A stretch of 64,000 nucleotides of DNA from Clostridiales bacterium. Lineage in GTDB: Bacteria > Bacillota > Clostridia > TANB77 > CAG-508. Shown here one piece after another: positions 15,001 through 18,000 of the stretch. The stretch is taken from contig DQFO01000016.1 of assembly GCA_003525075.1 (NCBI GenBank), positions 17,167-81,166 of the forward strand. The letters run 5' to 3'. The position numbers were made by a program. Each line of letters begins with the position of its first letter. Position 1 is the stretch's first letter.

Positions 15001-18000
15001 GAAATAGATACTGCTCCAATAATATTTTCATTTTCTAATAAAGCAAATGATCTTATATTATTTCCAAAATATTTTTTTCTTTCATCAAACTCTAGTCCAT
15101 TTTCTATATAAAAATTAATTAAACTATCATTATCATATTTATCAAATTTCATAAAAACCTCCCATTCGATAAATTATCTATTTTAAGTCTTTTATATATC
15201 TAACATCACAAGCAAAATGTTCTGTCTTTACTATTAGTTCATCCACTTTAACAAAGCCATATTTTTCATAAAATCTTTGTGCTGCAATCATATTACTTAA
15301 TGTTTCTAAGTAACACTTACTATAATATTTTTTTGCATATTCTAATGCCATATCCATTAATTTGTGAGATATACCTGTACCTCTTGTTTCAGGTAAACAA
15401 TACATTTTTTGTAATTCACATACGTCTTCAATTCCGTCTAATTTACCTATTCCAACTCCACCAACGATTTTCCCATTTTCATCAATTGCAACCAAATATT
15501 TATTTCCATCTGTATTATAAATTTCTGAAAATCTTCCTAAATTTGGATCTGCCCAAGCTGTTCCTTCATGATTTGCACCAAATTCAATTAAACAAGCTCT
15601 TATTACATTTTCTACTTCTTTATTATCTTTTTCTTCTATTTCTCTAATATTATACTTCATTTTATTCCTCCATAAAGCTTAAATTTATTATTATACTTCT
15701 TGACTTTTTGCGTTTAAATGGATTATAATAATTATAGGAAATGGCAAATCCACAAACGTGTTTTTTGCCGAATAGAGTAAAACTCACATCTACTCGTCAA
15801 AGTACAGATGTGAGTTGTTTTTTATTTATGTAGTTGCTTATCAACCCAGTTCTTATACAGAACTGCTGTCAATGAAACCACATCTGCTAATTCTCATTTC
15901 CTATGACATACATTCTACAATACTATTTCAGATTTGTCCATACACTGTAAACTTTTATATTTGAAATTTCATTAAATTTATTTTATAATACAATTGAGGT
16001 GTATATATGAAAACTATATTAGATGATGACTTATCATATTTAATATATTCCATAGTAGAAGAAATCCATGTTCGGATATGTTGCAACTTATGGTCAAATT
16101 GCCAGATTAATTGGAAAGCCTAAAAATTCAAGATTAGTTGGCAAGGCACTAAAAATGGCTTTTCGTTATGGTGATTTTCCTTGCCACAGAGTTGTAAACC
16201 ATCAAGGCAGAATTACCCCTGGATGGCCTGAACAAGTAGATTTACTTAAAGAAGAAGGTGTTACCTTTAAAAATGAATTTTGCGTTGATTTAAAAAAACA
16301 TCAATGGAATATATAAAAGCAAACCAGAGAAATTTTAAATTTTCTGATTTGCTTTTTTATTTTAAAATATTATCCGCTTCCTCTTGATCTACGTAACTAT
16401 CAAGTTGCACATCTATTTTGTATAATTTGTTTGTACTTTTTCTGGTAGCTCATTATATTGTACTTCTTCCCATGAATAAACTCCAAATGTTTTTACTTCC
16501 AATTTTAGAAAAGCATCTTCTTTAAGTTCTCTACTTGTTTTAAACTTCAATTCTCTTTTCTTTCCATTTTCATTATAACAATCTAAAGTATACTCATATT
16601 TCATATTATCTGAGCTTGATACTTTTTCTATTTTGGTATTATCAATTTGTGTATAATAAATTGATTTATAATTTTCAAAAAAATACAATCCAGTTACACA
16701 TATTACAATTGCCACAATCACTGCAATAACCATTGGTAATTTTTCTTTTAAATCTTCCATTATAACATTTTTTCTTTCTTACTTCTTCAACAACTATTCA
16801 TCTTCTTTGATAATATTCTTACTTCCTAAATAAGTAGCTAAGAAATATATACCATATATGATACCTATAATAATTACTGTCGCAATAGCTGATGGTAATA
16901 AATCTTTTTTACTTGCCAATCCTGACATTATAGTAATTGCAAATTGTATTCCAAATATAGAATGTATAATTGCAAGAACAAGTGGAACTCCAAAAAATAT
17001 TCCAATTTGTCTAAATAATGCTTTATTAATCATCTTTTCGTCACAACCAATTTTTCTTAAAATAGTATATCTTTGTTTATTATCTGAGCTATCTGTTAAT
17101 TGTTTTAAAGCTAAAATAGCTGAACTTGCAATTAAAAATATAATTCCTAAATAAATTGCTATAAATGTTACAATAGTTGCTAGACCTACACTTGCTTCCA
17201 TAAGAGCTATTTTCGTTTTTCCGTCAATATTCAAACCTTTCTTATCAAAATTTTGTAAAAGTTCAGAATTATCATCAACAAATATTTTTTCTATCTCTTC
17301 TTTTCCCTCTTTAGTATCTGCATTATAATTTGCAGCTAATAAATATTGTTCTTTCATACCTTCTGTTAAATTACAATCATCTGGAACTAATATAATTCCT
17401 GTATTTGTATGATTAGTAGCCATTTGAATATACCCTGTTTTACATTCATTATATTTTGATTTATATTGTTTTCCAACTATATTTAAAACATTATTTCCAT
17501 CTTTTAATGCTTCATCTCGTAATTCTTTTTGTGAATCAAAATCACAAAGTACAATATATTCATCATTATTTAATTCATATTGATTAATTCCATATAGTTT
17601 TGCAATTTTGTTATAGTCTGATATTTTTACTATCTGTTCTGCTGTATTATATAAAAGATTTGGATATTTAGTTTTTATATCTATATATTTATCTCCAAAA
17701 AAATCTTTCCAAGTCAAATCATCTGTGGAATATACTGTTATTTCCACAATGTCTTTTAGGACATTCATATCTAAACCATTATTTTTTAAAGTTTCAACAA
17801 TAGGTATTTTTGAATCCGACATTGCTTCTGGTGTTGATGTTATCTCTTTCCCATAAGTTCCATATTGCAAATATTTTTCTGGTAAATTAGCTGTTTTATA
17901 TAAATTCAAGTCTACTGGTGTCATCTCGATTAATTCTCTTTGCATTGTATTTCTTAATGCTAAACTTGAAGAAAGTATTGAAATTGTCATAAATAGCATT

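What the first reader, a model, noticed from the sequence alone, without database searches (positions are those of the whole stretch)
15700..15960. Degenerate inverted copy of the same element that keeps the sRNA gene but has lost the peptide start (orphan antitoxin-like sRNA)
15734-15904 is about 85-90% identical to the reverse complement of 38046-38325, except that the 110-bp block carrying the SD and first 23 codons is absent. Only ...AVLYKNWVDKQLHK* remains, without a start codon. The sRNA side is intact: a TTGACT-17-TATAAT promoter (15700-15729) leads to a terminator (15781-15827). A weaker TGGACA-17-TAGAAT promoter remains on the remnant-toxin side. Loss of the toxin with retention of the antitoxin RNA is a recurrent decay pattern for type I systems. 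The two copies are in inverted orientation and bracket about 22.5 kb that includes the Bce-like module and the vanG-type operon.
Basis: seen in the sequence. Interest (0 to 1): 0.6.

Follow-up and report, generated by a model that had tools for sequence, protein, structure and literature searches.

The report
Toxin-less relic of small-toxin/antisense-RNA module
This 250-bp stretch is a decayed copy of a small, repeated gene pair (a 39-residue membrane peptide plus a convergent small RNA) found in uncultured gut Clostridia: a deletion removed the peptide's start and membrane segment but left the small-RNA gene, an ordinary kind of decay in a gene-pair family that appears undescribed.

Summary
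Window 15724-15905 (+) aligns to the reverse complement of 38045-38334 at 91% identity over 174 aligned bases. An internal block of about 110 nt is missing; in the intact copy it holds the anti-SD, SD, start codon and codons 1-25. A covariance model built only from other species' copies hits 15734-15830 at E=8e-16.

The intact copy (38010-38357) looks like a type I toxin-antitoxin module. It has a 39-aa hydrophobic peptide under coding constraint and an SD-sequestering leader. A convergent ~95-nt sRNA has its own strong promoter and shares a terminator hairpin; both sRNA helices covary.

I found 124 copies in gut Clostridia MAGs. No Pfam, NCBIfam, Rfam or literature match turned up. About one copy in nine has lost the peptide start but kept the sRNA, and one strain carries an independent deletion at the 38-kb locus, so toxin loss with sRNA retention is recurrent.

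Corrections: copy A is not a recent duplicate of copy B. Its sRNA has changes at conserved positions, including one broken base pair, and scores near the bottom of the family. None of 20 strain contigs shows the 22.5-kb interval inverted.

Toxicity, transcription and any trans-antitoxin role are untested.

The parts
15700..15729 (+). Copy A: sRNA promoter, TTGACT-18-TATAAT
   Evidence: 11/12 match. Both boxes are conserved at the same place in 83/85 intact family members.
15734..15830 (+). Copy A: orphan sRNA gene. The predicted transcript is ~90-95 nt, starting near 15734-15736 and ending in the T-run at 15815-15829.
   Evidence: Covariance model R1 hit of 90.2 bits, E=8e-16. Fold -29.8 kcal/mol, z=-5.2.
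15745..15766 (+). Copy A: hairpin P1 of the sRNA (CAAAUCCAC-AAAC-GUGUUUUUUG). The 5' arm is intact; the 3' arm is mutated (GUGG->GUGU, plus one U).
   Evidence: The family P1 core covaries CCAC/GUGG <-> CCGU/ACGG.
15783..15829 (.). Copy A: shared (bidirectional) terminator hairpin, 15783-15791/15806-15814, with T-runs on both strands
   Evidence: All 9 stem pairs show compensatory changes across the family.
15822..15866 (-). Copy A: remnant of the peptide ORF, the last 14 codons (AVLYKNWVDKQLHK) plus the stop. There is no start codon and no SD.
15867..15874 (.). Copy A: deletion junction (…GTGGTTTC|ATTGACAGCAG…). It corresponds to the loss of B 38076-38186.
   Evidence: The same junction occurs in L130/L141 and L163.
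15874..15905 (-). Copy A: retained first ~31 nt of the peptide-mRNA leader (CAUAGGAAAUGAGAAUUAGCAGAUGUGGUUUC)
15912..15940 (-). Copy A: remnant peptide-side promoter, TGGACA-17-(TG)TAGAAT
   Evidence: 10/12. It belongs to the same class as the TAGACA…TGTAGAAT promoters of many intact copies.
38010..38038 (+). Copy B: peptide-mRNA promoter, TTGATT-17-TGcTATACT (extended -10)
38045..38113 (+). Copy B: peptide-mRNA 5' UTR. It holds the leader (38046-38079), the anti-SD GCCACC (38077-38082), a small hairpin (38089-38100) and the SD GAGAGGUGGUG (38103-38113).
   Evidence: The predicted anti-SD:SD helix appears. Parallel change CCACCC/GGGUGG in the L072-type copies.
38114..38233 (+). Copy B: 39-aa peptide ORF, MFMVKVILFFIISFMLSLTLNVALAAVLYKNCVDKQLHK. 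This is the candidate type I toxin.
   Evidence: Codon-position variability is 1.74/0.34/3.31.
38241..38274 (.). Copy B: shared terminator hairpin
38225..38324 (-). Copy B: convergent sRNA, the candidate antitoxin
   Evidence: R1 hit of 114 bits, E=9e-21. Fold z=-4.5.
38329..38357 (-). Copy B: sRNA promoter, TTGACA-17-TATAAT
   Evidence: 12/12 match.

Best explanation
15700-15940 is a toxin-less relic of a ~350-bp, multi-copy, type-I-toxin-antitoxin-like module.

The intact module (copy B, 38010-38357) has two parts.
1. An mRNA for a 39-aa single-helix membrane peptide. Its SD is locked in a helix with an upstream anti-SD.
2. A convergently transcribed ~95-nt sRNA. It shares the terminator hairpin with the mRNA, so the two RNAs are fully complementary over their 3' ~50-60 nt. 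It also carries a highly conserved 5' domain with hairpin P1.

In copy A an internal deletion at short repeats (…GGTTTTGCC… / …CGTTGCC…) removed the anti-SD, SD, start codon and transmembrane codons. Both promoters, 31 nt of the mRNA leader, the last 14 codons, the terminator and the whole sRNA gene remain.

Shown: the anatomy, the family, the coding constraint, the RNA structure with covariation, the recurrence of this kind of deletion, and its fixation in the species.

Inferred:
- The peptide is toxic and the sRNA is its antitoxin.
- Deletions that kill the toxin are tolerated, while loss of the sRNA next to a live toxin is selected against. That asymmetry would explain why orphan sRNAs accumulate.
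- The copy-A sRNA is probably still transcribed. It is most likely a slowly decaying relic that may add trans-acting antitoxin dosage through its intact P1 5' arm.
For: Similarity and deletion.

Independent model hit on copy A.

Peptide family:
- 37 homologs.
- 124 elements in 119 genome stretches of gut Clostridia MAGs.
- 25 representative clusters, with diverged members keeping …INVAL…Y.NWVNKQ….
- Third-position-biased variation.

sRNA:
- The 5' domain is >=90% conserved at most positions.
- Both helices are 97.3% paired, 13/13 pairs have compensatory changes, and 0/500 shuffles reach the observed score.
- Folds have z=-5.2 and z=-4.5.

SD sequestration: with a parallel change.

Recurrent toxin loss with sRNA retention:
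- 12 of 18 truncated copies keep the sRNA with its -10 box.
- An independent 138-nt deletion (38072-38209) lies at the copy-B locus of strain L174.
- The same junction as copy A occurs in L130/L141 and L163.

The reverse case is rare. Only 2 of ~91 intact peptide genes lack the sRNA: L021, by IS insertion, and L027, by deletion. L027's genome also holds the orphan L130 and the intact L064.

Copy A is present, with the same deletion, in 10 + 27 strain contigs.

Precedent for an expressed orphan type I antitoxin: PMC11264685.
Against: - There are no expression data for either RNA and no toxicity test of the peptide.
- Copy A's sRNA has changes at conserved positions (A11G; G28U plus a U insertion). 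At 90.2 bits it scores below nearly all full-length type-1 copies, which range from 94 to 125 bits.
- Some strains add further damage. L137 and L151 have CCAC->ACAC. L142 has a mutated -10 box. L163 has GG->AG, CCAC->CUAC and has lost the -35 box. This argues for relaxed rather than purifying selection on the orphan.
- Paralogous type I antitoxins often do not cross-react (par pAD1 versus EF0409, PMC7472228). A and B differ in the terminator loop and linker.
- Predicted 5'-domain duplexes give only a 1-2 kcal/mol net gain once intramolecular folding is allowed.
- My census was anchored on the last 11 codons of the peptide. It cannot see copies that lost that end, so the ratio of orphan sRNAs to orphan toxins is biased.
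Confidence: 0.75

Rival explanations
1. Domesticated orphan antitoxin. The copy-A sRNA is maintained by selection as a trans-acting repressor of the intact peptide mRNA(s) of the genome. It would act through the family-wide conserved 5' domain rather than through the cis-antisense overlap.
For: - The promoter (11/12) and terminator are intact, and the locus is fixed in 37 strain contigs.
- The P1 5' arm CAAAUCCAC is unchanged. The A11G change extends complementarity to the mRNA leader GUGGUUUUGCC: duplexfold gives -21.8 kcal/mol against -14.1 for the cognate sRNA.
- Most orphan sRNAs elsewhere are at or near consensus, with 0-3 errors in 35 nt.
- A genome with an sRNA-less live toxin (L027) also carries an orphan sRNA (L130).
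- L163 has a compensatory change in the terminator stem.
- An orphan OrzP is expressed in E. coli (PMC11264685).
Against: - The score is near the bottom of the family, and one P1 pair is broken.
- There is further independent damage in strains and in L163.
- Strain-level identity is too high overall to show selection.
- Recombination with other copies (L139) could keep orphans looking fresh without selection.
- Cross-talk between paralogous type I systems is often absent (PMC7472228).
Confidence: 0.3
2. The module is not a toxin-antitoxin pair. It would be a benign small membrane protein gene with an antisense regulator, or a mobile promoter/terminator cassette, and copy A would simply be a broken copy with no regulatory meaning.
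For: - No toxicity data exist.
- There is no hit to any known toxin or antitoxin family.
- The element sits in many different intergenic sites and breaks assemblies like a repeat.
- Two intact peptide genes exist without their sRNA.
- The window's own peptide carries W32C at an otherwise conserved Trp.
Against: - The anatomy matches type I systems feature by feature: a peptide under 60 aa with a transmembrane segment and a polar, aromatic C-terminus; a sequestered SD; a convergent structured sRNA; multicopy occurrence (PMC2887945 criteria).
- There is a marked asymmetry: many sRNA-only copies and few peptide-only copies.
- Deletions recur that precisely remove the translation start.
Confidence: 0.15
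3. The two inverted copies act as recombination arms, so that the 22.5-kb interval (Bce-like module plus vanG cluster) inverts or is a cassette delimited by them.
For: - Inverted orientation and bracketing are confirmed.
- Rearrangement breakpoints do coincide with element borders in related strains. In L163 the flanks are deleted exactly at 15944 and 15704. In L139 copy A's peptide side is joined to a different sRNA half and a foreign flank.
- The MatE side of copy B is variable.
Against: - All 10 contigs read across copy A and all 10 across copy B have the window's arrangement. Two contigs span both copies at the same ~22-kb spacing.
- The arms share only 174 alignable bases at 91%, split by a 110-nt gap, with a longest identical run of 26 nt.
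- L139 has 3x coverage and may be a chimeric assembly.
Confidence: 0.04
4. The resemblance is chance or low-complexity AT-rich similarity.
For: The window is 25% G+C.
Against: - A model built from other species hits copy A at E=8e-16.
- The leader motif occurs only at the four expected places plus one single-mismatch site: 5 matches against 1.2 expected, with 0/100 shuffles reaching 5.
- The aligned blocks are 91% identical.
Confidence: 0.01

Closest known systems
par (Fst) RNA I / RNA II of Enterococcus faecalis pAD1 and its chromosomal homologs (Fst/Ldr type I TA family; PMC7472228)
   Same: - Convergent promoters.
- One bidirectional intrinsic terminator shared by the toxin mRNA and the sRNA, giving complementary terminator stem-loops.
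- An intramolecular stem-loop that sequesters the SD of the toxin mRNA.
- A small single-helix hydrophobic peptide with a charged tail and a conserved Trp.
- Chromosomal multicopy occurrence.
   Different: - In par, the 5' parts of the two RNAs are complementary because they read across direct repeats (DRa/DRb). Here the two RNAs start with the same ~35-nt leader, which is an inverted repeat in the DNA. The 5' complementarity is limited to the sRNA P1 arm against the leader GUGGUUUUG, or against AUGUUUAUGG at the start codons.
- The peptide has no PXXXG(C) motif and gives no Pfam or NCBIfam hit.
- The sRNA (~95 nt) gives no Rfam hit.
Orphan 'orz-only' antitoxin loci of the zor-orz type I system in E. 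coli (OrzPmg; PMC11264685)
   Same: A type I locus in which the toxin ORF and the base-pairing part of its UTR are gone while the antitoxin sRNA gene remains. It is widespread and fixed in strains.
   Different: OrzPmg expression was shown by Northern blot; here nothing is measured. The organism, toxin and sRNA are all different. Copy A also keeps the toxin-side promoter and 31 nt of leader, so a second, non-coding convergent transcript may still be made.
3'-overlapping convergent type I systems of Bacillus subtilis and Clostridioides difficile (bsrG/SR4, txpA/RatA, yonT/SR6; CD2517.1/RCd8 etc.; PMC6563280, PMC5848175)
   Same: A low-GC Gram-positive setting. The sRNA is convergent to the toxin gene, with complementarity at the 3' ends. 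The expected action is mRNA degradation and/or a structural change at the SD.
   Different: There is no sequence relation. The overlap here is essentially the terminator and 3' UTR only, at most 1-2 codons. The conserved non-overlapping 5' domain suggests an additional or different contact.
Decayed chromosomal hok/sok loci of E. coli K-12 (from my own knowledge: Pedersen & Gerdes 1999; not read here)
   Same: Chromosomal type I loci are commonly inactivated on the toxin side by IS elements, deletions or point mutations, while the antisense part persists.
   Different: The family and the regulatory scheme differ (hok uses mok translational coupling and 3' processing).

Membership tests
Type I toxin-antitoxin system (generic) | A small peptide (<~60-70 aa) with a predicted transmembrane helix and a polar, charged or aromatic C-terminus (criteria in PMC2887945) | tested here: met
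   Copy B encodes 39 aa, with residues 4-28 hydrophobic and the tail YKNCVDKQLHK. There is coding constraint. Copy A itself has no translatable ORF.
Type I toxin-antitoxin system (generic) | An sRNA gene with its own promoter and terminator, antisense to or overlapping the toxin mRNA | tested here: met
   Promoters score 12/12 (B) and 11/12 (A). The terminator hairpin is shared. The structure is supported by covariation, with 13/13 pairs changed compensatorily. This is in silico only.
Type I toxin-antitoxin system (generic) | The peptide is toxic when expressed, and the sRNA prevents its synthesis | not testable with these tools
   No experiment or expression data are available. Indirect hint: sRNA-only copies (12) far outnumber peptide-only copies (2).
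par / Fst-Ldr family | Convergent promoters and one shared bidirectional intrinsic terminator (PMC7472228) | tested here: met
par / Fst-Ldr family | Direct repeats DRa/DRb, read in opposite directions, give 5' complementarity that covers the SD and start codon | tested here: not met
   The 5' ends are an inverted repeat, so the two leaders are identical rather than complementary. The only complementarity is a 10-nt imperfect match of CCACAAACGU to AUGUUUAUGG and a 9-nt match of CAAAUCCAC to GUGGUUUUG.
par / Fst-Ldr family | Fst-type toxin sequence (hydrophobic domain with a PXXXG(C) motif; homology detectable by profile) | tested here: not met
   The peptide has no Pro or Gly. No Fst, Ldr or other toxin family appears at E<=10 in Pfam or NCBIfam.
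Known antitoxin/antisense RNA families in Rfam | A score at or above the family gathering threshold | tested here: not met
   There are 0 hits at gathering thresholds in the window. The best sub-threshold hits are Spy779816 (26 vs 67 bits) and CopA (18 vs 60 bits).
Orphan type I antitoxin locus (orz-only type) | The sRNA gene is retained with promoter and terminator, while the toxin ORF and translation start are deleted | tested here: met
Orphan type I antitoxin locus (orz-only type) | The orphan sRNA is expressed | not testable with these tools
   No transcript data are available.
Invertible DNA segment bounded by inverted repeats | Both orientations of the interval are found among strains or reads | tested here: not met
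   0 of 20 strain contigs are inverted. The longest identical run between the arms is 26 nt.

The most novel reading that the evidence does not exclude
The ~35-nt leader shared by the peptide mRNA and the sRNA is nearly invariant over ~100 copies. It is also attached to at least one unrelated peptide ORF. It may define a modular, family-wide control system in which any sRNA copy recognises any peptide mRNA in trans, through the P1 arm pairing with the leader and/or start region, rather than through cis-antisense overlap. Toxin-less copies such as copy A would then be selected 'immunity' genes that buffer a genome against its own and incoming copies of a mobile toxin module. The convergent non-coding remnant transcript could act as a sponge.
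Probability: 0.15. Interest if true: 0.65.

Novelty: new member of a known kind. Interest (0 to 1): 0.4.

Why it matters
The orphan copy itself is an expected kind of decay and needs no new biology.

The value lies in what it exposed: an apparently undescribed type-I-TA-like family that is widespread in uncultured, low-GC gut Clostridia. The peptide has no Pfam or NCBIfam hit, the sRNA has no Rfam hit, and the peptide strings appear in no searched paper. One flanking protein of this organism is indexed in more than 6,000 blocks of the assembly collection, so the host is common.

The family offers a natural allelic series: intact copies, sRNA-only copies, peptide-only copies, and one locus that is intact in some strains and deleted in another. 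That makes the usual questions about type I systems directly testable in sequence and metatranscriptome data. Those questions include whether orphan antitoxins are selected and whether paralogs cross-talk.

For annotation, the 39-aa gene and both sRNA genes are missed or mis-called in most assemblies, and the repeat breaks contigs.

Tried and rejected
- **Consensus terminator scan.** It found nothing. The hairpin loops of 14-16 nt exceed the scan's 8-nt loop limit. Folding and covariation were used instead.
- **Peptide search.** I used the 54-aa upstream-extended ORF. The exact window peptide is not on record, which turned out to reflect its private W32C change.
- **MAFFT alignment of all sRNAs (A3).** RNAalifold found only P1, because the two terminator types were aligned one column out of register. 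I rebuilt a model from type-1 sequences only (A4/R1) and let cmsearch realign all copies (A5).
- **Rfam at permissive thresholds, Pfam and NCBIfam at E<=10.** Only sub-threshold noise appeared.
- **Weak R1 hit at 48110-48175.** It lies inside a long ORF and lacks the hairpins. I rejected it as a third copy.
- **L130 as a syntenic ortholog of copy A.** Rejected: the flanks differ. The junction, however, is shared.
- **Target-site duplications or terminal repeats outside the promoters.** I found none.
- **A stem pairing the 5' GGAAA with UUUUGCC in the leader.** Variants do not compensate (reading of A3/A4), so it was dropped.
- **Thermodynamic support for 5'-domain pairing.** It was weak once self-folding competes, so I keep it only as a hypothesis.
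- **My regex class 'truncated'.** It wrongly included four intact members of the CCGU subfamily (L072, L093, L108, L113). I corrected this by hand.
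Full report
**1. The observation**

I read both regions and aligned them with a gap-tolerant global aligner.

- Window 15724-15868 (+) matches the reverse complement of 38334-38187, and 15875-15905 matches 38075-38045.
- Over the aligned blocks, 159 of 174 bases are identical (91%). The longest perfect run is 26 nt, 15820-15845.
- The repeat finder reports the same three inverted pairs (I1-I3).
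- Between the blocks, copy B has 111 nt (38076-38186) where copy A has 6 nt.
- That block holds the anti-SD GCCACC, a small hairpin, the SD GAGAGGTGGTG, the ATG at 38114 and codons 1-25.
- Copy A keeps codons 26-39 (AVLYKNWVDKQLHK) and the stop (15822-15866, minus strand) without any start.

Chance is excluded. A covariance model built from 68 copies of other species, with both window copies left out, hits 15734-15830 at 90.2 bits, E=8e-16. It hits 38225-38324 at 114 bits. No other convincing hit occurs in the 64 kb.

- The sRNA promoter spacer is 18, not 17.
- 24-25 codons are lost, not 23.
- The consensus terminator scan reports nothing; the hairpin loop of 14-16 nt exceeds the scan's 8-nt loop limit. 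The fold is clear, with z=-5.2 for A and z=-4.5 for B.

**2. What the intact element is**

Copy B (38010-38357) has these parts:
- An extended -10 promoter, TTGATT-17-TGcTATACT.
- A 69-nt leader.
- A 39-codon ORF, MFMVKVILFFIISFMLSLTLNVALAAVLYKNCVDKQLHK.
- A hairpin, CTCACATCTG…AGATGTGAG, with T-runs on both strands.
- On the other strand, a perfect TTGACA-17-TATAAT promoter that drives a ~95-nt RNA ending at the same hairpin.

The peptide is real.
- 37 homologs appear in the 5.8-billion-protein collection.
These were nearly all 'uncultured Clostridia bacterium' gut MAGs from human, rabbit, goat, deer and chicken, including Clostridium sp. CAG:245, CAG:780 and Ca. Scatovivens.
- Among 70 distinct ORFs, variability by codon position is 1.74/0.34/3.31, which shows coding constraint.
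- A profile search of 1.84 billion representatives finds only 25 clusters. Some are diverged members that keep …INVAL…Y.NWVNKQ….
- Pfam and NCBIfam give nothing.
- Rfam gives nothing at gathering thresholds and only noise below them.
- The peptide strings occur in no searched paper.

**3. The RNAs**

Across ~100 copies, the sRNA 5' domain AUAGGAAAUGACAAAUCCACAAACGUGGUUUUGCC is >=90% conserved at most positions.
- Hairpin P1 (CCAC/GUGG) switches to CCGU/ACGG in seven copies with no broken pair.
- The terminator stem exists in two fully compensated versions, CUCACAUCU/AGAUGUGAG and AAACCAUU/AAUGGUUU.
- On the model-guided alignment of 97 copies, 97.3% of cells pair. All 13 pairs show changes on both sides, and 0/500 shuffles reach the observed score. 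That alignment is fitted to the model, so these counts lean towards the structure.

In the mRNA, the minimum-energy fold pairs UUGCCACC with GGUGGUGA and so buries the SD. In the L072-type copies both sides lengthen together, to CCACCC and GGGUGG.

[quoted passage not shown] Its closest formal analogue is par/Fst, which has convergent promoters, a shared bidirectional terminator and an SD-sequestering stem-loop (PMC7472228).

It differs from par in one clear respect. The two RNAs begin with the same ~35-nt leader, which is an inverted repeat in the DNA. par instead uses direct repeats that make the 5' ends complementary. The leader is also attached to an unrelated peptide ORF in L078.

Two short complementarities exist:
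- sRNA CAAAUCCAC against leader GUGGUUUUG.
- sRNA CCACAAACGU against the start region AUGUUUAUGG.

The leader changes GUGG->ACGG in the same copies in which P1 changes. Predicted energies are modest once self-folding competes. I leave the leader's role unexplained.

**4. The element is multicopy and moves or recombines**

- Contigs carrying the identical peptide P0014 lie in at least four different gene contexts, and several end inside the element.
- In other species it sits in other intergenic sites. In L068, for example, it lies inside a homologous Bce-like module where the window has none.
- Several MAGs hold three copies.
- I saw no target-site duplication or terminal repeat outside the promoters.

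**5.

I classified the 124 elements (122 from the genome scan plus the two window copies) and corrected four misclassified intact subfamily members by hand.
- About 95 have an intact SD and ORF.
- 18 with adequate flanks are truly truncated at the N-terminal side, at many different points.
- Of these 18, 12 keep the sRNA 5' domain and the -10 box, 9 of them also the -35 box. Most are at or near consensus. Six have lost the sRNA 5' domain as well.

The reverse case is rare. L021 has an IS inserted in the terminator, and L027 has the sRNA 5' domain deleted. L027's MAG also holds an orphan sRNA (L130) and an intact copy (L064).

In the same species as the window, strain L174 carries an independent 138-nt deletion at the copy-B locus (38072-38209, junction GTGGTT|GATAAG). 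It removes the anti-SD, SD and 32 codons but keeps both promoters and the sRNA.

Copy A's own junction (GTGGTTTC|ATTGAC) recurs almost exactly in two places:
- L130/L141, from another species and a different context.
- L163, a 95%-identical relative whose flanks are deleted flush with the element at 15944 and 15704.

It has a documented counterpart in E. coli orz-only loci, where the orphan is expressed (PMC11264685).

One caveat applies. My census is anchored on the peptide's last 11 codons, so it under-samples other kinds of remnant.

**6. How good is copy A's sRNA?**

- Promoter and terminator are intact, and the locus is the same in 10 + 27 strain contigs.
- It carries A11->G and GUGG->GUGU plus one U, which breaks the C17-G28 pair.
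- Its 90.2 bits lie below almost all full-length type-1 copies, which range from 94 to 125 bits.
- Some strains add CCAC->ACAC (L137, L151) or a mutated -10 box (L142).
- L163 has other hits and has lost the -35 box, yet shows a compensated change in the terminator stem.
- The P1 5' arm, the best candidate for target contact, is intact in the window.

I read this as a probably transcribed, slowly decaying relic. A retained trans-antitoxin role is possible (about 0.3) but not shown.

Copy A is not a recent duplicate of B. It has the TAGACA…TGTAGAAT promoter class and a different terminator loop.

**7. The 22.5-kb interval**

The bracketing is true. The interval holds a Bce-like ABC/two-component module (16794-21567) and a vanG-type cluster (26028-32686; the VanG ligase scores 541 bits against a cutoff of 495).

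All 10 contigs across copy A and all 10 across copy B have the window's arrangement. Two contigs span both copies at ~22 kb. With a longest identical run of 26 nt, inversion is unlikely.

Element borders do coincide with strain-specific rearrangements (L163, L139; MatE decay or loss beside copy B). L139 has 3x coverage and may be chimeric.

**8. Verdict**

The orphan is an ordinary decay product. The family behind it appears undescribed, so it is a new member of a known kind (type I TA-like, par-like layout) with an unexplained shared leader. Function (toxicity, repression, expression) is inferred from anatomy and comparative patterns, not measured. Interest 0.4.

Noticed in passing
window 38207-38209: The window's copy-B peptide has TGT (Cys32). 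Nine other strains of the same species, and essentially the whole family including diverged members, have TGG (Trp). This is a private change at a conserved residue of the candidate toxin and may attenuate it.
   Followed up: partly
window 38046-38079 (+), 38290-38324 (-), 15875-15904 (-), 15734-15769 (+): The peptide mRNA and the convergent sRNA start with the same ~35-nt leader (AUAGGAAAUGAnAA…GUGGUUUUGCC), an inverted repeat flanking the module. It is nearly invariant over ~100 copies. In one subfamily it changes GUGG->ACGG in parallel with both arms of sRNA hairpin P1. Its role is unknown.
   Followed up: partly
L078:3363-3700 and L064:1024-1300: A homologous sRNA and leader module is coupled to an unrelated hydrophobic peptide (MIEAVSLEIIYLLLFALVVETIIVFALIICIIFLSK). 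The regulatory RNA part seems modular across toxin families.
   Followed up: no
L174:1650-2120 (same locus as window 38010-38357): In one Hadza-metagenome strain, the otherwise intact copy B carries its own 138-nt deletion (window 38072-38209). Only VDKQLHK*, both promoters and a full-score sRNA (114.7 bits) remain.
   Followed up: yes
L139:4800-5100; L163:200-450: L139 joins copy A's peptide-side half to a consensus-type sRNA half and an unrelated flank. This is either recombination with a third copy or a chimeric 3x-coverage assembly. L163 lacks window 15945-16764 and 12202-15703, with both breakpoints flush with the element borders.
   Followed up: partly
L021:1600-3200: An insertion carrying a transposase-like ORF splits the terminator hairpin of an element, separating an intact peptide gene from its sRNA promoter and 5' domain by ~1.4 kb.
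   Followed up: partly
L027:2380-2760: An intact peptide gene with a terminator whose sRNA 5' domain and promoter are deleted. The same MAG (CAKOUU01) also holds an orphan sRNA (L130) and an intact module (L064).
   Followed up: partly
window 16007-16316 (+): The MGMT/ATL-like DNA-binding-domain gene next to copy A is split by a frameshift near 16065 into 38-aa and 82-aa ORFs. Gene callers find only a 53-aa product in nine strains, so it looks like a fixed pseudogene.
   Followed up: no
window 38408-39530 (-): The MatE-family transporter gene beside copy B is fragmented in the window and fragmented differently in other strains. It is a single 522-aa ORF in one assembly and absent in two. This is a decaying, variable flank.
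   Followed up: partly
L068:180-560; L135:880-1170; L041:7420-7800: In other species, intact modules lie directly beside homologs of the window's Bce-like or vanRS-type two-component/ABC genes. In L068 the module sits between the ABC ATPase and the kinase, where the window has only a 216-bp spacer. This may be coincidence or a preferred neighbourhood.
   Followed up: no
window 48110-48175 (-) and 62166-62179 (-): A weak model hit (22.9 bits, E=0.06) and a one-mismatch leader motif. Both lie inside long ORFs and lack the hairpins, so I judged them chance matches.
   Followed up: yes
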